Assembly: GCF_053078305.1 (NCBI RefSeq)
Contig: NZ_CP166879.1
DNA: 64,000 nucleotides
Direction: 5' to 3' (one strand)
Shown here: positions 23,259 to 38,005 of the stretch, in pieces
How positions within the stretch are numbered: position 1 is the stretch's first letter
Layout: every line of letters starts with the position of its first letter
Position numbers and translations under genes: made by a program
The notes under the pieces: generated by a model
What the model was told of the DNA's origin: nothing
The model's input: the letters and a program-made list of their open reading frames with translations, nothing else
Database searches by the model: none

Positions 23259-23459
23259 ATGTATCGAAACATACGGTGCCGACACTGCAATAAGCTACTG
23301 GCACGGGCCAGTTTCAGTTATCTGGAAGTAAAATGTCCGCGCTGTAAAACCCTCAATCAAATCACATCTCCGAGCGCCACAGAGCACCCCACATACACAA
23401 GGAAATCCTGTCGTGGGGAACAGAAAGCAAGTCACATCCCGTATCATCAGCACGCCTGA
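23259..23459 (+). CDS. com: Com zinc-finger translational activator of mom
   Basis: Motif [29 protein letters not shown]...EHPT aligns with the Mu Com C4 zinc finger as recalled; SD GCAGGAGG 10 nt upstream of the ATG at 23259. Confidence 0.75.
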
Positions 23460-24150
23460 ACTTATTCGCTATAACGACAATATCGTTGGTTATGGTTCCC
23501 GTGAGTTGCGGGTTGAGACAATAAGTTGCTGGCTGGCCAGACTGGTTATCGTCAATAAACATTACAGCCACCGTTTCGTAAATAACTCCTACCTTCATCT
23601 GGGCATATTTTCAGAACGGGAACTTGTTGGCGTAATGCAATGGGGTTACGCCCTTAACCCAAACAGTGGTGCACGCGTCGTAACGGGTACGCAGAACCGA
23701 GAATATATGGAGCTGAACCGGCTATGGATGCATGACTGTATGCCGAGAAACTCCGAATCAAGGGCAATCAGTTACGCGCTCAAGCTAATCAGGCAGCTTT
23801 ATCCGCAGGTACAGTGGGTTCAGTCGTTTGCAGATGAGCGTTGTGGCTGTCTTGGTGTCGTGTATCAGGCAAGCAATTTTGATTATGTAGGCAGCCATGA
23901 AACAATATTCTATGAACTTGATGGCGAGTGGTATCACGAGATTTGCAGGAATGCCATTAAACGAGGCGGACAACGAGGTGAACATCTGAGGGCTAATATC
24001 GACAGAGCCAGTGTGCATAAGTTCCGACAGTTTCGTTACATCCGGTTTCTGAACAAGAGGGCCAGAAAACGCCTCAACACAAAGCTATTCAAAGTCCAGC
24101 CTTACCCAAAACCACAAACAGTTAAAACTGGTTTGAAAGAGAGTGAATGA
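23413..24150 (+). CDS. mom: Mom-like DNA modification protein
   Basis: 245-aa ORF overlapping the com 3' end, last gene before the prophage right end as in Mu; start codon uncertain. Confidence 0.65.
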
Positions 24151-24295
24151 GCGCTTAAAAACTCATTCTAAAACTCAAAAGAAAAGCGCCGATTTAGTAT
24201 CAAATAAGTTGCGTATCGGCGTTTTTCAGCGGTATCAAATGAAATGCAAATCGGTATCAAAAAAATCGCCGCGCTATATGCCGCTGACCACAGCA
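24150..24295. other. Mu-like prophage right end (transposase-binding repeats) and junction with lambdoid Z remnant
   Basis: Repeated CGGTATC / GCGTTTTTCAGCGG motifs resembling MuA end-binding sites; sequence ends ...ACCACA (terminal CA) just before lambda-like coding sequence resumes. Confidence 0.35.
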
Positions 24296-31368: not shown

Positions 31369-31609
31369 AAATAAAAAAATCCCGCAGAGTTAGTGGAGCT
31401 GCGGGAAATAACGATGAAGATTAATGTTATGGAGTTATTTTTTTGGGCAGAAAAACAGTAACGCAGCGTCATTATAGCGGCTACAGGCAATTGCCGGAAA
31501 TGTGAAGAATTTCAGAAATTTTATTCCGTCATGACACAGGCACCCTCCGGGGTGCCTGTTGTTTTTGGGCATAAACAGATTCAGACATCAGACAGGAGAG
31601 GGGGACAGA

Positions 31610-34600
31610 GTGGGTAAAGGGGGCGGCAAGGGGCACACACCGCGTGAGGCGAAGGACAATCTCAAATCCACGCAGATGATGAGCGTGATTGATGCCATTG
31701 GTGAGGGACCGGTGGAAGGTCCGGTGAAGGGACTGCAGAGTATTCTGGTGAACAAAACCCCGCTGACGGACACGGACGGTAATCCCGTGATACACGGTGT
31801 GACCGCCGTCTGGCGCGCCGGGGAGCAGGAGCAGACACCGCCGGAAGGCTTTGAGTCCTCCGGGGCAGAAACCGCACTGGGCGTGGAGGTGACGAAGGCA
31901 AAGCCGGTGACGCGCACCATCACGTCAGCGAACATTGACCGTCTGCGGGTCACCTTCGGGGTGCAGTCACTGGTGGAGACCACCTCAAAGGGTGACCGTA
32001 ATCCCTCTTCTGTCCGCCTGCTGATTCAGCTTGAGCGTAACGGGCACTGGGTGACGGAGAAGGATATCACCATTAACGGCAAGACCACCTCGCAGTACCT
32101 GACGTCTGTGATTCTGAATAATCTCCCTGAGCGCCCCTTTAACATCCGGATGGTCAGGGAGACGGCGGACAGCACCACGGACCAGCTGCAGAACAGAACG
32201 CTGTGGTCGTCATACACCGAAATCATCGATGTGAAACAGTGCTACCCGAACACGGCCATTGTGGGGCTGCAGGTGGATGCGGAGCAGTTTGGTGGCCAGC
32301 AGCTGACGGTGAACTACCATATCCGTGGTCGCATCATTCAGGTGCCGTCAAACTATGACCCGGAAAAACGCACCTACAGCGGTATCTGGGACGGGAGTCT
32401 GAAACCGGCATACAGCAATAACCCGGCCTGGTGCCTGTGGGACATGCTGACCCACCCGCGCTACGGCATGGGAAAACGCCTGGGGGCCGCGGATGTGGAC
32501 AAGTGGGCACTGTATGCCATCGGGCAGTACTGCGACCAGACGGTCCCGGATGGTTTCGGGGGAACAGAGCCGCGGATGACTTTCAATGCGTACCTGTCAC
32601 AGCAGCGTAAGGTGTGGGATGTCCTGGGGGATTTCTGCTCGGCGATGCGCTGTATGCCGGTATGGAACGGCCAGACGCTGACGTTCGTTCAGGACCGTCC
32701 GTCGGATGTGGTGTGGCCGTACACCAACAGCGATGTGGTGGTGGATGATAACGGCGTGGGGTTCCGCTACAGCTTCAGTGCCCTGAAGGACCGGCACACG
32801 GCGGTGGAGGTGAATTACACCGACCCGCAGAACGGCTGGCAGACCTCCACGGAACTGGTGGAAGACCCGGACGCCATCCTGCGCTACGGACGCAACCTGC
32901 TGAAGATGGATGCGTTTGGCTGTACCAGCCGCGGTCAGGCCCACCGTGCCGGACTGTGGGTGATAAAGACCGAACTGCTGGAAACGCAGACGGTGGATTT
33001 CACGCTCGGGTCACAGGGGCTGCGGCATACGCCCGGTGACATCATTGAAATCTGTGATAACGACTATGCCGGGACCCTGACCGGCGGACGCATCCTGTCC
33101 ATTGATGCCGCCAGCCGCACACTGACGCTGGACCGTGAGGTGACACTGCCGGAAGCAGGGACATCGACGGTGAACCTGATTAACGGCAGCGGTAAGCCGG
33201 TGCGCGTGGACATCACTGCACACCCCGCGCCGGACCGGATACAGGTCAGCGCCCTGCCGGATGGCGTGGAGACATACGGTGTGTGGGGACTCTCCCTGCC
33301 GTCACTGCGTCGTCGCCTGTTCCGCTGTGTTTCCATCCGGGAAAACACGGACGGCACTTTTGCCATCACGGCAGTGCAGCACGTACCGGAAAAAGAAGCC
33401 ATTGTGGATAACGGGGCTCGCTTTGAGCCGCTGTCCGGTTCACTGAACAGCGTTATCCCGCCGGCAGTGCAGCACCTCACGGTGGAGGTGAGTGCCTCAG
33501 ACGGCCAGTATCTGGCGCTGGCGAAATGGGACACGCCGCGGGTGGTGAAGGGCGTGCGCTTCAGTCTGCGCCTGACCAGCGGAAACGGTGAAAACAGCCG
33601 CCTGGTGACCACCGCCATCACTGCCGACACGGAGCACCGTTTCAGTGGCCTGCCTCTGGGGGAATACACCCTGACGGTCAGGGCGATAAACAGCTACGGC
33701 CAGCAGGGCGAACCTGCCACCACCGCGTTCCGGATTAATGCGCCTGCAGCACCGGCCAGCATTGAGCTGACGCCGGGGTATTATCAGATAACAGCAGTAC
33801 CGGTGCTGGCGGTGTATGACCCGACGGTACAGTTTGAGTTCTGGTTCTCGGAGGCAAAAATCGCAGACACATCTCAGGTGGAAACCTCTGCCCGTTATCT
33901 GGGGACAGGCAGCCAGTGGAGCGTCTCCGGCCCGCACATCAAGCCGGGGAAGGATTTCTGGTTTTATGTGCGCAGCGTTAACCTGGTGGGGAAATCTGCG
34001 TTTGTGGAAGCCAGTGGCCGGGCGAGCAATGATGCAGAAGGGTATCTGGGGCTGTTTCGGGAAAAGATAGGAAAACTGCATCTGGCACAGGGGATGTGGG
34101 AGCTGATTGATAACAGCCAGCTTGACAATGAGATGGCGGAGATGAAGACCACCATCACCGAAACCCGCAATGAAATCACGCAGACGGTCAGTAAAACCCT
34201 GGAAGACCAGAGCGCCACCATACAGCAGATACAGCGGGTGCAGACAGACACAAATAACGACCTGGCTGCGCTGTACATGCTGAAGGTGCAGAAAACAAAA
34301 AACGGCATTCCGTATGTTGCCGGTATAGGTGCGGGGATTGAGGATGCTGATGGCCAGCCCCTGAGCAATATTCTGCTGCAGGCGGACCGTATCGCGATGA
34401 TTAACCCGGAGAACGGCAACACCACGCCGCTGTTTGTGGCGCAGGGGAATCAGCTGTTCATGAACGATGTGTTCCTGAAGCGGTTGTTTGCAGTGAGCAT
34501 CACCTCGTCCGGCAATCCCCCGACGTTTTCCCTGACGCCGGACGGGAAACTGACGGCCCGCAATGCTGATATCAGCGGACATATCAGTGCGAACTCGGGC

Positions 34601-35077
34601 ACGCTGAATAATGTCGTGATAGCGGAGAACTGTACGATAAATGGCACGCTGAAAGCGGAGAACATTATTGGTGATCTTGTGAAATGTGCAGGGGTGGCTT
34701 TTCCGGTGGATGGTAGTTACCTTGCGAACGGTACACGAACGCTGACGGTATATGACGATCACAGCTTTGACCGGCAGATTATAATCCCGCCGATAATCTA
34801 TGTCGGGTCAAAACAGGAATCCCGTACCAGTAATGACATCTGGACAGAGTGCTTCCTGCATGTTGATCAGAACGGACGCCGGATTTATTCAGGCAGGTCA
34901 GTGACAGAGCCGGGAATTTTCAGCGGGATCATCGATATGCCAGCCGGAGGTGGTCATATCACCCTGAGTTTTACCGTAAGTTCACGACGTCAGAACGGGA
35001 GTTTTGGCAGTTCACGTATCAGTAACCTTCAGGCGATAGTGGTGAAGAAAAACAGCGCGGGGATCAGTATCCGCTGA
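31610..35077 (+). CDS. J: Tail tip / host specificity protein J
   Basis: GTG start (GTG GGT AAA GGG...) after SD AGGAGAGGGGG; 1155 aa with strong lambda-J similarity and a divergent C-terminal receptor-binding region. Confidence 0.9.
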
Positions 35078-35275
35078 ACATCGCGCCCCGGGATTGCCGG
35101 AAGGAGACAAAAACCGTACAGTATGCGCGGGTGCCTTTGGCTGATGGCCGGAGGGAACACCTGAAGGCCGGAAAGACGAAGGCCCCGGACAAACATTCAT
35201 GTTTAACCCGAGGCCTGACTTTCGATCTTCAGCAAATTGAAGGTTAGCGCCTCTCCGTAAAAGGAGCAAGCGTTT

Positions 35276-35416
35276 ATGTCGCAAAAACCGTTAAAAACCA
35301 CCGTGATTTGTACCACGGTAGTGCTCATTATCTGGATCACCCACACTTCACTGTGCGAGTTCCGGTTCCGGATAGCGGGCGCGGAGATTGCGGCGTTCTT
35401 ACAGTGTAAGCAGTAA
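35276..35416 (+). CDS. Hok/Gef-family type I toxin-like small membrane protein, 46 aa, in the lom position
   Basis: MSQKPLKTTVICTTVVLIIWITHTSLCEFRFRIAGAEIAAFLQCKQ carries the Hok signature (TM helix, then SLCE-x-R-x-R...E-I/V-AAF...C); SD AAGGAG 9 nt upstream. Confidence 0.6.
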   Translation: MSQKPLKTTVICTTVVLIIWITHTSLCEFRFRIAGAEIAAFLQCKQ

Positions 35417-35513
35417 GAAACCGTGGCGTGGGAGAATATCCCCCGCCGACCGGTTGCTGAGGGTGGTCAGCCGGATGGCACCGTTTTAACACCAACAAAC
35501 CACAAATATTACC

Positions 35514-35547
35514 GCAGGCCGGGAAACCGGTACTGCGGTTTTTTTAT
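35514..35547 (+). terminator. Rho-independent terminator downstream of the hok-like gene
   Basis: CCGCAG...CTGCGG stem followed by TTTTTTT. Confidence 0.55.
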
Positions 35548-35558
35548 GGGGGAAATCC

Positions 35559-37292
35559 ATGACAGTCAGAATATCGGGTGTGCTGAAGGATGGTACGGGA
35601 AAAGCGGTACCGGGATGCACGATAGAGCTGAAAGCGCGCCGCACAACGGAGACGGTGATTGTCACCACGGTGGCGTATGGTCAGCCGGGGGAAACCGGCA
35701 GTTACAGTATGGATGTTGAGCCGGGGTTGTACCGGGTGACGCTGAACACGGAAGGGTACGCGCCGTCATATGTGGGTGACATTCTGGTGAAGGCGGATTC
35801 TGCACCGGGAACGCTGAATAAATTTCTGATGGACCTGGAAGACGCACAGTATTACCCGAAAGCCCTTGCAGAGCTGGAAGCGGTGGCAGCGGAAATCCTG
35901 AAGCGTGCAGAAGCGTCAGCGGCCAGTGCAGAGGAAGCGAAGAAACGGGCAGAGAATGCGCGGGGACCGAAGGGGGATAAGGGAGACACCGGGCCACAGG
36001 GGATTCCCGGGCCAAAAGGCGATACCGGCGAGCGGGGGCCAAAGGGTGAGCGTGGTGAGACAGGGCCACAGGGGCTTCAGGGTGTGAAAGGTGAACGGGG
36101 AGAGAAGGGCGAAAAAGGCGAGCCGGGAGGGCCGGATGCGACGACGGCACAGAAGGGAATTGTGCAGTTAAGCAGCGCAACGGACAGTGATGATGAAACG
36201 AAGGCAGCCACGCCGAAAGCGGTGAAAGCGGCAATGGACAAAGCGGACGGATGCCTGGAGAAAGCGAAAAACGGTGACGATATCCCGGATAAGGTGAAGT
36301 TTCTGAACACCGTGGGAGCAGCCAGAGTATACGGGCGGGACATTCATACGGGGGCCGGTGAATGGACCACGAGTGAGTTTGTCGCCTGGCTGAAAGAAAA
36401 AGGGGCATTTGACCAGCCTTACTGGATGATGAAGGCATCACTGCTTGCGTCAATGAATAAAGTCATCACAGATGTCGGACCGGGAAAACTCAATCTGGGT
36501 GGCTGTGTCATTGAGGTGATGGGAACGTATGAGGCTGCCATAGTCCGGGTCACCATTGGCGAATACGGTGCAACGGGGTTTATTAATGGCACGGTCTGTA
36601 CCTGTACGGTTTACGGCGACACACAGTATTTCCACTGGCGGGTGGATTACAGCACAAAAAACAAACCGGATACGGTCAGCCAGCGGGATGCCAGTACGAC
36701 GCAGAAAGGTGTGGTGCAGTTAAGCAGTGATACTGGCAGTAATGACGAAACAAAGGCAGCCACGCCGAAGGCCGTGAAGGCGGCAATGGATGTGGCAAAT
36801 GAAGCGAAAACAAAGGCAGAAGAGGCTGCAGCAGGAGGTGGTGTTCCCGGTCCGAAAGGAGAGAAAGGTGACCCCGGAGCACAGGGTCCGAAAGGTGAAA
36901 CGGGAGCAACAGGCCCCGCTGGTCCGCGGGGAGCGCAGGGACCGAAAGGGGAGAAAGGCGACCCCGGTCCCAGAGGTGAGCGTGGAGAAACCGGGCCGAT
37001 GGGGCCGCCGGGGGCATCAGGAGATGACGGGAAGAGTCGTGTCATGGGCTTCAGGCTGGGGAATCCGGTAACGTATGAGTTGCAGGAGGGGGACCATGGC
37101 TGGTCAGTTAATCTGGCTGATGGTTCAGTCATTACAGGGCTTTCGGGGAACACTCAGGGCGGCGTCAGCCGTGTTACAACGATTTACTACAGGCCGCTGC
37201 AGATGACGTTTGATGGCTCTCACTGGCGCACCGTTGGTGTTGGTGAGTATGTGTCGTCAGGAGCGCCGGGGCGTGAGTATTTTTCATTATAA
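35559..37292 (+). CDS. stf: Side tail fibre protein with two collagen-like Gly-X-Y tracts
   Basis: 577 aa; [37 protein letters not shown] and a second GXY run. Confidence 0.85.
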
Positions 37293-37333: not shown

Positions 37334-38005
37334 ATGCACATAAAGAATTTCAGACAATACACGCCGGAAAATCCGGATGTGCCGGGTGCGATGTACCTGA
37401 AATCAGAGGATGGTCAGGACTGGTATGAGTGTCAGTCGTTATTTTCAGCAGAGACGCTGAAGGTGGTTTATAACAGTGCCGGGGTCATTACCGGCATCAG
37501 CAGGGTGGCATCAGTTCTGTGGCCTGTGAATCAGAGTGTGGTGGAGGTGGCGGATACGGAAGAAAACCGCAAAGCTGACATCTCCGGGCGCTGGGGTTTT
37601 GACGGGGAGAAAATCACGGACCTGCTGACCGCGGAGAAAGCGCGAGGGATGAAGGGCGATGAAATTAACGCCTGGCGTAATGCGATGGAAGCGGCGAACT
37701 ACACGTTTGAGCACAATGGGCGTAAATGGGACTACGGGAAGTCAACGCAGACGCGTCTTGAGCCGTCGGTGGCGGCAGCGAAAGCGGGGAAACTGCCGGA
37801 GGCGTTTTTCTGGACGGATGCGGAAAACAATGATGTGCCGGTGACAGCAGACGAGCTTATTGCGCTGAGTGAAGCGGCAGAGCAGGCGATGTTTACCAAA
37901 GGGATGGAAATCCACGTCCGGCAGCGCACCATGAAGAAAGAGCTGGAAAAGCTGACCAGTGAGGATGAGATACTGGCATACAGGGTTGGCTGGGCACAGG
38001 AATAA
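37334..38005 (+). CDS. tfa: Tail fibre assembly protein
   Basis: 223 aa, lambda Tfa-like, immediately after stf. Confidence 0.8.
   Translation: MHIKNFRQYTPENPDVPGAMYLKSEDGQDWYECQSLFSAETLKVVYNSAGVITGISRVASVLWPVNQSVVEVADTEENRKADISGRWGFDGEKITDLLTAEKARGMKGDEINAWRNAMEAANYTFEHNGRKWDYGKSTQTRLEPSVAAAKAGKLPEAFFWTDAENNDVPVTADELIALSEAAEQAMFTKGMEIHVRQRTMKKELEKLTSEDEILAYRVGWAQE

What the first reader, a model, noticed from the sequence alone, without database searches (positions are those of the whole stretch)
35559..37292. Side tail fibre with two collagen-like Gly-X-Y tracts
Two separated (GXY)n runs of about 19 and 16 triplets sit in the Stf shaft. Such tracts are recombination-prone and underlie fibre length and host-range variation.
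Basis: seen in the sequence. Interest (0 to 1): 0.25.

Follow-up and report, generated by a model that had tools for sequence, protein, structure and literature searches.

The report
Prophage side tail fibre with collagen spacers
This is an ordinary E. coli prophage side tail fibre gene whose shaft contains two real collagen-like segments; it belongs to a protein family described in 2012, and only the second segment changes length among relatives.

Summary
The ORF at 35559-37292 (+, 577 aa) is real and intact. It holds two uninterrupted Gly-X-Y runs. Tract 1 has 19 triplets, as reported. Tract 2 has 22 triplets (20 canonical plus 2 created by a 2-aa insertion), not about 16.

The protein is a lambdoid side tail fibre of the published EHEC prophage collagen-like family (EPcl; Ghosh 2012). 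The identical sequence is already in NCBI (WP_044191900.1).

Its layout is a lambda StfN collar domain, collagen 1, a fibre repeat, a phage Mu S'-like knob, a second fibre repeat, collagen 2 and a divergent tip domain. A tail fibre assembly gene follows.

Across relatives, tract 1 is fixed: 19 triplets in 118 of 120 protein clusters. Tract 2 is nearly fixed in this allele's own lineage (20-22 triplets). It ranges from 24 to 72 triplets in sibling alleles that carry a 108-nt tandem DNA repeat, even where the rest of the protein is identical.

Similarity break-points cluster in or beside the tracts, and the tip behaves as a separately exchanged cassette.

Module exchange and length variation occur in the family, but little of either shows in this allele, and any link to host range is untested. 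Interest is low.

The parts
35559..37292 (+). stf gene: side tail fibre protein, 577 aa, intact ORF. Identical to NCBI WP_044191900.1 / KFD74106.1.
   Evidence: ORF. Pfam phage_tail_N, Collagen x2 and Phage_fiber_2 x2. PHROG 366 'tail fiber protein', E = 1e-121. Exact sequence found in the collection.
35559..35831 (+). StfN collar domain (aa 1-91), which anchors the fibre to the tail tube/tip.
   Evidence: PDB 9e7m_Ta 'Tail fiber protein', residues 1-91 to 1-91, E = 7.5e-28. 9e7m is the Ur-lambda structure, in which gpStfN 1-91 forms a collar contacting gpV and gpM (PMC12617516).
35832..35960 (+). Linker plus short Ala/Glu-rich helical segment (aa 92-134); the end of the PfN domain and a presumed trimeric coiled coil.
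   Evidence: Lies inside Pfam PF08400 1-134. Ghosh 2012 predicts a coiled coil for the last 30 or so residues of PfN. In Ur-lambda Stf a trimeric bundle follows the linker at residues 92-101. The inference here is by homology only.
35964..36134 (+). Collagen-like tract 1: 19 uninterrupted Gly-X-Y triplets (aa 136-192), about 16 nm if triple-helical.
   Evidence: run and composition. Pfam Collagen 135-190. 19 triplets in 118 of 120 relatives. Rise of 2.88 A per residue taken from PMC3368898.
36141..36263 (+). Phage fibre repeat Pf2, copy a (aa 195-235).
   Evidence: Pfam PF03406, 2 stretches, best stretch 195-235, E = 3.1e-35 for the whole protein. Aligns to Mu S' residues 111-172.
36231..36674 (+). 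Central globular module homologous to the phage Mu S/S' and P2 gpH fibre (aa 225-372).
   Evidence: PDB 8ju3_A Mu tail fibre S/S', residues 175-324, domain i-E-value 1.1e-30. About 50% identity to P2/PSP3 tail fibre H by tblastn.
36693..36839 (+). Pf2 copy b (aa 379-419) plus a short Ala/Glu-rich helix and Gly3 linker (to aa 427).
   Evidence: Second PF03406 stretch. 108-nt direct repeat 36131-36238 / 36683-36790, 81% identical. Motif KGVVQLSS at aa 383.
36840..37037 (+). Collagen-like tract 2: 22 uninterrupted triplets (aa 428-493), 20 canonical plus GDD GKS; about 17-19 nm.
   Evidence: Pfam Collagen. 20-72 triplets in relatives. Holds a 29-nt internal direct repeat 90 nt apart (gene nt 1291-1319 and 1381-1409, 93% identical), seen against the near-identical relatives.
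37038..37289 (+). C-terminal tip domain (aa 494-577): a divergent PfC / Mu S'-tip-like beta domain. Presumed trimerisation nucleus and receptor-binding part.
37334..38005 (+). tfa: tail fibre assembly protein (223 aa).
   Evidence: Pfam DUF4376, E = 4.9e-18, plus weak Caudo_TAP. PHROG 11571, and PHROG 136 'tail fiber assembly protein', E = 4.5e-33, on aa 1-98.

Best explanation
The gene encodes a homotrimeric side tail fibre of a lambdoid prophage integrated at ydfJ.

Each chain runs as follows:
- A lambda-type StfN collar domain fixes the fibre to the tail.
- A short helical bundle follows.
- Collagen tract 1 forms a triple-helical rod of about 16 nm.
- A knob follows, made of a Pf2 repeat, a Mu S'/P2 H-like domain and a second Pf2 repeat.
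- Collagen tract 2 forms a second rod of about 17-19 nm.
- A small beta-rich tip related to PfC and to the Mu fibre tip ends the chain. It probably nucleates trimer registration from the C-terminus and binds the cell-surface receptor, helped by the downstream Tfa chaperone.

The collagen segments work as rigid spacers that carry little sequence constraint. A triple helix needs only Gly at every third residue and three-fold symmetry, so it can join unrelated trimeric modules. In evolution the tracts therefore act as junctions where the N-terminal anchor, the knob and the tip are exchanged.

Change in repeat number is a property of the DNA, not of Gly-X-Y as such. It is frequent only in sibling alleles whose tract 2 is built from a near-perfect 108-nt (12-triplet) tandem unit. 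The allele in this window lacks that unit and sits at the short, stable end of the range.

Shown here: the anatomy, the homologies, and the pattern of variation and break-points.

Inferred: triple-helix formation (by homology with EPclA, which was tested experimentally), trimerisation and receptor binding by the tip, and any effect of rod length on adsorption.
For: Observation and domains.

StfN matches the solved Ur-lambda collar (PMC12617516).

The central module matches Mu S' with E = 1e-30.

Four independent weak-to-moderate lines link the tip to PfC and to the Mu fibre tip.

Position-specific composition fits the EPcl pattern reported in PMC3368898. X positions hold Pro, Asp and Glu; Y positions hold Lys, Arg, Thr and Gln; there is no aromatic residue, Cys or His.

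That paper showed by CD, SEC-MALLS and EM that an EPclA collagen domain is a trimeric triple helix (Tm 42 C), and that PfC is a trimerisation module able to re-nucleate it.

Variation:
- Tract 1 has 19 triplets in 118 of 120 clusters. Tract 2 has 20 triplets with this tip type and 24-72 with the alternative tip, with modes at 36, 48 and 60.
- The 12-triplet unit is visible in the protein and as a 108-nt repeat, 3.0 copies, 94% matches in L006.
- Proteins identical over all 508 non-tract residues carry up to 10 different tract-2 lengths.
- The lengths 43 and 48 were read directly from complete chromosomes (L005 and L006). Many of the other length variants come from clusters whose longest contig is about 5 Mb.

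Junction role:
- Similarity ends at gene nt 443, 524, 577, 1314, 1332, 1412 and 1506. That is 7 of 9 boundaries in or within 30 nt of tracts that, with margins, make up 28% of the gene (binomial P of about 0.003).
- The tip is 66-67% identical in DNA between flanks of 95-99%.
- One relative has the same tip but a replaced tract 2 (L009).

A deposited phage genome (1720a-02) carries the same J-hok-stf-tfa arrangement.
Against: - No experiment on this protein exists. Triple helix, trimer and receptor binding rest on homology.
- Break-points taken from BLAST ends are not independent events. They would also fall at domain borders in any modular protein.
- Some tract-2 length variants come from draft assemblies, which can collapse 108-nt repeats.
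- The prophage carrying the gene appears to be split by a Mu-like prophage just upstream of gpU. The fibre may therefore not be made as part of a viable phage in this strain.
Confidence: 0.85

Rival explanations
1. One reading: both Gly-X-Y tracts of this gene are hypervariable, and their repeat number drives fibre length and host-range differences among related prophages.
For: Tract 2 ranges from 20 to 72 triplets in the family. ydfJ-site prophages differ widely in triplet number, including pairs with the same tip: L007 versus L012 (31 versus 40) and L010 versus L011 (11 versus 33).
Against: Tract 1 is 19 triplets in 118 of 120 clusters. Tract 2 is 20-22 within this tip lineage. This allele has no higher-order DNA repeat. 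Host specificity in homologous fibres maps to the tip (established knowledge of fibre tips, recalled, not tested here), which is the segment that diverges here. No data link length to host range.
Confidence: 0.15
2. The gene is a functionless remnant. The lambdoid prophage is defective, interrupted by a Mu-like prophage, so the fibre is no longer produced and the ORF is merely not yet decayed.
For: The right end of the Mu-like prophage abuts lambdoid gpU at about 24,279. No complete E. coli genome holds this junction. The head genes of the lambdoid element are not in the window.
Against: The ORF and tfa are intact and 98-99% identical to copies in other strains. Tail genes U through J, stf and tfa are all open. 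Defective prophages can donate tail-fibre modules by recombination (discussed in PMC3368898). This rival concerns present use, not what the protein is.
Confidence: 0.3
3. The Gly-X-Y tracts are flexible, disordered low-complexity linkers rather than collagen triple helices.
For: There is no direct structural data for this protein. Bacteria lack prolyl hydroxylase.
Against: The runs of 19 and 20-22 triplets have no interruption. The strict X/Y charge pattern, with many K-G-E/D steps, is typical of stable unhydroxylated bacterial collagens. That these steps stabilise the helix is my recollection of work on model collagen peptides, not tested here. The homologous EPclA tract was shown to be triple-helical with Tm 42 C. 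Indels in relatives come in whole triplets.
Confidence: 0.05
4. The protein is a bacterial surface adhesin or virulence factor that uses collagen mimicry, rather than a phage structural protein.
For: Collagen-like proteins of some pathogens bind host factors (discussed in PMC3368898). Relatives are enriched in STEC strains.
Against: The gene sits in the tail operon between gpJ and tfa. Every domain is a phage fibre domain. No match to a secretion or surface-anchor domain appeared in the Pfam or PHROG scans; signal peptides were not specifically tested.
Confidence: 0.03

Closest known systems
EPcl proteins (EHEC prophage collagen-like proteins A-D; Ghosh et al. 2012, PLoS One 7:e37872, PMC3368898), especially the EPclC type such as ORF-401 of phage P-EibA
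   Same: Encoded in the prophage tail region. Has a PfN (PF08400) N-terminus, collagen domain(s) with the EPcl X/Y residue preferences, Pf2 repeats, two collagen domains and no long PCoil (as in EPclC), and a small C-terminal domain after the last collagen tract. P-EibA ORF-401 matches aa 1-171 at 85%. Collagen lengths in the family change in steps of 3 aa.
   Different: A roughly 150-aa Mu S'/P2 H-like globular module and a second Pf2 repeat lie between the two collagen tracts; this is not in the tables or figure legend I read for A-D, and the figure itself could not be viewed. The C-terminal domain is only a distant PfC relative, below Pfam's threshold. A DUF4376-type tfa follows, whereas the 'FQRIS'-tip siblings have none.
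Bacteriophage Ur-lambda side tail fibre gpStf (PDB 9e7m; PMC12617516)
   Same: Homologous N-terminal collar domain (aa 1-91, E = 7.5e-28). Gene order J, then a small moron, then stf, then tfa. Pf2 repeats. The presumed role is faster adsorption through a secondary receptor.
   Different: Lambda Stf has a long coiled-coil shaft and a T4 gp37-like tip that binds OmpC, with no collagen (0 occurrences of 'collagen' in the paper). Here the shaft is two collagen rods plus a Mu-like knob, and the tip is of the PfC / Mu-tip type. The receptor is unknown.
Phage Mu tail fibres S (gp49, PDB 5yvq) and S' (gp52, PDB 8ju3) and P2 gpH
   Same: aa 193-372 are collinear with Mu S' residues 111-324 (E = 1e-30). 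The tip model's best structural matches are these two chains. A chaperone gene follows.
   Different: The N-terminal attachment domain is lambda-type, not a myovirus baseplate adaptor. The Mu S' segment at about residues 325-425 is replaced by Pf2, a helix and collagen tract 2. Tip similarity is weak (24-28% identity).
Length-polymorphic bacterial collagen-like proteins (B. anthracis BclA, S. pyogenes Scl1/Scl2); from my own knowledge, not tested here
   Same: Gly-X-Y tracts whose repeat number varies between strains through DNA-level tandem repeats, setting the length of a surface filament. A C-terminal or N-terminal globular domain nucleates the trimer.
   Different: Those are cellular surface proteins, whereas this is a virion fibre. 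In this particular allele the tandem DNA repeat is absent.

Membership tests
EPcl (EHEC prophage collagen-like proteins, Ghosh 2012) | Encoded in a prophage, in the tail-fibre position | tested here: met
   gpJ lies upstream, tfa downstream, and truncated ydfJ marks the prophage end.
EPcl (EHEC prophage collagen-like proteins, Ghosh 2012) | N-terminal PfN domain (PF08400) | tested here: met
   E = 3.8e-40, residues 1-134, full profile.
EPcl (EHEC prophage collagen-like proteins, Ghosh 2012) | One or more (Gly-X-Y)n collagen domains with EPcl positional preferences (Pro/Asp/Glu at X; Lys/Arg/Thr/Gln/Ala at Y; no Cys, Phe, His, Trp or Tyr) | tested here: met
   19 and 22 triplets. X positions: Pro 13, Asp/Glu 18 of 41. 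Y positions: Lys/Arg 18 of 41. None of the excluded residues is present (compared with Table 4).
EPcl (EHEC prophage collagen-like proteins, Ghosh 2012) | C-terminal PfC domain (PF06820), as in types A and B | tested here: inconclusive
   16.7 bits, below the 25-bit cut-off. However, BLASTP E = 8e-7 and hhalign 94.5% to a bona fide PfC. It is a distant relative, as allowed for types C and D, which have 'different C-terminal regions'.
EPcl (EHEC prophage collagen-like proteins, Ghosh 2012) | Long PCoil region (88-116 aa) between PfN and Col, as in types A, B and D | tested here: not met
   Collagen starts at aa 136, directly after PfN. The PCoil is 'often missing' in EPclC, so this is consistent with EPclC.
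EPcl (EHEC prophage collagen-like proteins, Ghosh 2012) | Forms a trimer with a true collagen triple helix | not testable with these tools
   Shown only for recombinant EPclA. Inferred here by homology.
Lambda Stf-type side tail fibre | StfN collar domain that docks on the tail | tested here: met
   PDB 9e7m_Ta, residues 1-91, E = 7.5e-28.
Lambda Stf-type side tail fibre | Followed by a tail fibre assembly (tfa) gene | tested here: met
   37334-38005; PHROG 136 and DUF4376.
Lambda Stf-type side tail fibre | T4 gp37-like distal shaft and tip, as described for Ur-lambda Stf | tested here: not met
   No gp37-like match among PDB hits at E <= 0.01. The tip instead resembles PfC and the Mu tip.
Mu S / P2 H myovirus tail fibre | Conserved shaft module (Mu S' residues about 111-324) | tested here: met
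   E = 1e-11 and 1e-30 for the two stretches. About 50% identity to P2 H.
Mu S / P2 H myovirus tail fibre | Myovirus baseplate-binding N-terminus | tested here: not met
   The N-terminus is lambda StfN. Mu S' residues 1-110 are not matched.
Tandem-repeat length-variable (VNTR-like) locus | Near-perfect head-to-tail DNA repeats within the tract | tested here: not met
   In the window, only an 18-nt repeat of 2.3 copies at 75% matches, plus scattered short repeats. The feature is met in sibling alleles: 108 nt, 3.0 copies, 94% matches in L006.

The most novel reading that the evidence does not exclude
Collagen tract 2 of this Stf family may be a genuine length-tuning device. It would be a 108-nt VNTR that changes much faster than point mutation and lets the phage population sample fibre reaches from about 17 to 62 nm, for instance to span O-antigen or capsule layers of different thickness. 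The window allele would then be the contracted, repeat-free ground state. More generally, collagen triple helices may serve as universal 'adapters' that allow fibre modules from sipho-, myo- and podovirus lineages (lambda StfN, Mu S' knob, PfC tip) to be spliced without co-adapted interfaces.
Probability: 0.15. Interest if true: 0.45.

Novelty: already known. Interest (0 to 1): 0.18.

Why it matters
As it stands, the finding matters little. It is a correctly spotted member of a described family, and the identical protein already has an NCBI accession.

Three points are still useful:
- The gene is a frequent contig break and is sometimes split into false pseudogenes by automatic annotation. Recognising the architecture helps prophage annotation in STEC genomes.
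- The contrast between a fixed tract 1, a DNA-repeat-dependent tract 2 and an independently exchanged tip gives a clear map of where such fibres can be cut and rejoined. This is relevant to engineering the host range of lambdoid and Stx phages.
- If tract-2 length affects adsorption, the 108-nt repeat would be a simple natural model for fibre-length tuning, and a possible typing marker for STEC prophages.

Tried and rejected
- **Antisense ORFs.** The ORFs over the tracts (263 aa and 168 aa) were rejected as composition artefacts, because the + frame carries strong domain matches along its whole length.
- **VNTR in this allele.** I looked for a tandem-repeat structure in the window's own tracts. 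TRF found only an 18-nt repeat of 2.3 copies at 75% matches, and the repeat finder found only short degenerate repeats. The idea was rejected for this allele.
- **Distant homologues of the tip.** An exhaustive HMMER search of 1.84 billion representatives with the tip gave only 9 hits, 5 of them at E <= 1e-10. The family is small, and the alignment for structure prediction was therefore shallow (8 sequences).
- **Pfam on the tip.** At default thresholds Pfam found nothing for the tip. The weak PF06820 match appeared only in a domain-only scan at E <= 10.
- **'FQRIS' and L012-type tips.** Neither matches any Pfam family. I did not pursue them.
- **Mu right end.** A search for the canonical Mu right-end sequence, allowing up to 3 mismatches, gave no match. 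The Mu-like end was placed instead by comparison with other genomes.
- **Split RefSeq annotation.** RefSeq splits the same gene into partial pseudogenes in JNEC-KY171 and SCU-171. My translations of those loci are uninterrupted, so I treated the split as an annotation artefact rather than decay.
- **22 versus 20 triplets.** I considered whether this difference was a triplet indel. It is a 2-aa 'GD' insertion at the tract end.
Full report
**Observation**

The window holds an intact ORF at 35559..37292 (+, 577 aa), exactly as reported. Counting Gly at every third residue gives two long uninterrupted runs. Tract 1 is aa 136-192 (nt 35964-36134), 19 triplets. Tract 2 is aa 428-493 (nt 36840-37037), 22 triplets.

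In 2000 shuffles of the protein, the longest in-register Gly run averaged 3.0 and never exceeded 7. Pfam's Collagen model matches both tracts. The last two triplets of tract 2 (GDD GKS) exist only because this allele has a 2-aa 'GD' insertion relative to its nearest siblings, whose run ends at 20.

The long antisense ORFs over the tracts are by-products of the purine-rich codons.

**Anatomy**

| Segment (aa) | Identity | Evidence |
|---|---|---|
| 1-134 | PfN / phage_tail_N | Pfam E = 3.8e-40 |
| 136-192 | Collagen tract 1 | |
| 195-235 and about 379-419 | Two Phage_fiber_2 (Pf2) repeats | |
| 193-372 | Mu S'-like module | PDB 8ju3, residues 111-324, domain E-values 1e-11 and 1e-30 |
| 428-493 | Collagen tract 2 | |
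| 494-577 | Tip domain | see below |

- Residues 1-91 match chain Ta of PDB 9e7m (E = 7.5e-28). That entry is the Ur-lambda cryo-EM structure. In it, gpStfN 1-91 forms the collar that docks the side fibre on gpV and gpM, followed by a flexible linker and a trimeric bundle (PMC12617516).
- The Mu S'-like module is also about 50% identical to the P2/PSP3 H fibre. PDB 8ju3 and 5yvq are the Mu gp52 and gp49 fibres (PMC11821841).
- At the DNA level the two Pf2 repeats are a 108-nt direct repeat, 81% identical and 552 nt apart, bracketing the Mu-like module.
- The downstream gene (37334-38005) is a tail fibre assembly protein: PHROG 136 on aa 1-98, and DUF4376 on the C-terminal half.

The last 84 residues have no Pfam match at default settings. 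Several lines nevertheless point to a divergent PfC domain with the fold of the Mu fibre tip:
- A domain-only scan gives PF06820 (PfC) at E = 0.0099 and 16.7 bits, below the 25-bit cut-off.
- BLASTP against the PfC of an EPclA protein (locus L014) gives E = 8e-7.
- A profile of 8 homologues aligns to that PfC with 94.5% probability.
- The profile also hits the C-terminus of a solved 'Short tail fiber' (9cuy, E = 6.7e-5).

Each line is modest on its own, but they agree.

**Context**

gpJ (31559-35077) lies upstream. Between J and stf sits a hok/gef-type ORF (35276-35416) with an Rfam sok match (35129-35287, 63.5 bits). A hairpin followed by T7 lies just before the stf ribosome-binding site.

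After tfa come a 5'-truncated ydfJ, then ydfI. The element is therefore a lambdoid prophage at the ydfJ site.

Window positions 1 to about 24,279 are the late half of a Mu-like prophage: portal, sheath, baseplate, fibre, invertase and Mom. In other strains its right end abuts unrelated host genes. The lambdoid DNA from gpU onward is continuous in strains that lack it. The lambdoid prophage carrying stf therefore appears to be split by a Mu-like insertion, and it may be defective.

Among the 120 best 90%-identity clusters, tract 1 has 19 triplets in 118. One cluster has a 40-aa in-frame deletion and one has a point interruption.

Tract 2 depends on which tip follows it:

| Tip lineage | Tract 2 length (triplets) | Source |
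|---|---|---|
| The window's own ('...EYF..') | 20 in all 8 clusters; 22 in the window; 21 in SCU-171 | |
| Alternative ('...FQRIS') | 21 different values from 24 to 72; modes at 36, 48 and 60 | |

- In SCU-171 the tip is the same but the tract sequence itself is replaced.
- The 'FQRIS' alleles are built from a 12-triplet unit. At the DNA level this is a 108-nt tandem repeat (3.0 copies, 94% matches in L006).
- Proteins identical at all 508 residues outside tract 2 carry up to ten different tract-2 lengths.
- The lengths 43 and 48 were read directly from complete chromosomes (L005 and L006), and many other variants belong to clusters whose longest contig is about 5 Mb.
- The window allele has no such repeat.
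- Other prophages at the same ydfJ site carry stf genes with 28+11, 28+31, 28+33, 28+40, 19+20+30 or 38 triplets. These include pairs with identical tips but different triplet numbers.

**Module exchange**

Nucleotide similarity to relatives ends at gene positions 443, 524, 577, 680, 1109, 1314, 1332, 1412 and 1506. Seven of these nine lie in or within 30 nt of the tracts, which with those margins make up 28% of the gene. The binomial P is about 0.003, but the boundaries are not independent.

Against L002-L004, every segment is 94.8-99.5% identical, tfa included, except the tip at 66-67%. The tip is thus exchanged as a cassette whose 5' border is collagen tract 2.

Alleles with the 'FQRIS' tip have no tfa downstream.

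**Mechanism**

The best-supported reading is a trimeric fibre. The StfN collar anchors it. Two collagen triple-helix rods space the modules: about 16 nm and about 17-19 nm, at 2.88 A per residue. A Mu-like knob sits between the rods. A PfC/Mu-type tip trimerises, sets the register of collagen 2 and binds the receptor with help from Tfa.

Triple-helix formation is inferred from two things. First, the X/Y composition matches the EPcl pattern. Second, published experiments on EPclA showed trimers, a collagen CD spectrum with Tm 42 C, and PfC acting as a trimerisation and refolding nucleus (PMC3368898).

The role of the tracts as recombination joints is shown by the break-point pattern. The restriction of repeat-number change to alleles with higher-order DNA repeats is also shown. 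Any effect of rod length on adsorption or host range is not shown.

**Comparison with what is known**

The protein belongs to the EPcl family and is closest to the EPclC type: two collagen domains, no long PCoil and a non-canonical C-terminus. P-EibA ORF-401 matches aa 1-171 at 85%.

It differs by the Mu S'-like module and the second Pf2 between the collagen tracts. It shares the anchor and gene order of lambda Stf, but not lambda's coiled-coil shaft or gp37-like tip.

The identical protein is in NCBI as WP_044191900.1 / KFD74106.1. Its 90% cluster has 2580 members, and nearly all of those listed are partial. A 91%-identical copy is in the deposited phage 1720a-02, with the same J-hok-stf-tfa order.

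**Verdict**

The kind is already known. Interest is low (0.18).

The most novel reading left open is that the 108-nt repeat in sibling alleles is a functional length-tuning device. I give that about 15%.

Noticed in passing
window 1-24,279 (junction at about 24,278-24,281): The late half of a Mu-like prophage: portal, Mu F-like protein, capsid, sheath, baseplate, tail fibre plus tfa, DNA invertase at 19102-19662, and a Mom-like protein at 23413-24150. It ends directly upstream of lambdoid gpU (24388). In other strains the same Mu-like end abuts unrelated host genes, and no complete E. coli genome holds this junction. The lambdoid prophage that carries stf therefore seems to be split by a Mu-like transposition.
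   Followed up: partly
window 35129-35546: A hok/gef-type toxin ORF (35276-35416, 46 aa) with an Rfam sok match (35129-35287, 63.5 bits against a gathering score of 59). It occupies the slot between gpJ and stf where some relatives carry lom. A terminator-like hairpin plus T7 (35513-35546) ends just before the stf ribosome-binding site.
   Followed up: partly
L005, L006 and proteins P0007-P0120 (sibling stf alleles): Tract 2 is built from a 108-nt (12-triplet) tandem unit in about 2-6 copies. Proteins identical outside the tract show up to 10 different lengths. These alleles end in an unannotated '...FQRIS' C-terminal domain with no Pfam match and have no tfa gene downstream.
   Followed up: partly
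L001 12152-13306 (E. coli JNEC-KY171 prophage): A related prophage carries an annotated ompC porin gene inside its tail operon, between the gpM-like gene and gpL. This is of note because lambda Stf uses OmpC as its receptor. The window has no such gene.
   Followed up: no
L001 20001-21734; L009 2566-4290: RefSeq annotates the same stf gene as two partial pseudogene fragments plus one shorter CDS in two complete genomes, although the ORF translates without any stop. In addition, nearly all listed members of the 2580-member 90% cluster are 'partial'. The collagen and Pf2 repeats appear to disrupt both annotation and short-read assembly.
   Followed up: partly
L002-L004 and L013, downstream of tfa: Relatives carry a YadA-like gene directly after tfa; I take it to be Eib-type, which was not checked. 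The window goes straight from tfa to truncated ydfJ.
   Followed up: no
window 36131-36238 and 36683-36790: The two Pf2 repeats are a 108-nt direct repeat (81% identical, 552 nt apart) flanking the Mu S'-like module. Recombination between them would delete the module and give the simpler Col-Pf2-Col layout seen in L013.
   Followed up: no
window 47657-47872: Strong Rfam match to the Hfq-binding sRNA STnc560 (276 bits) in the chromosomal flank. It is unrelated to the finding.
   Followed up: no
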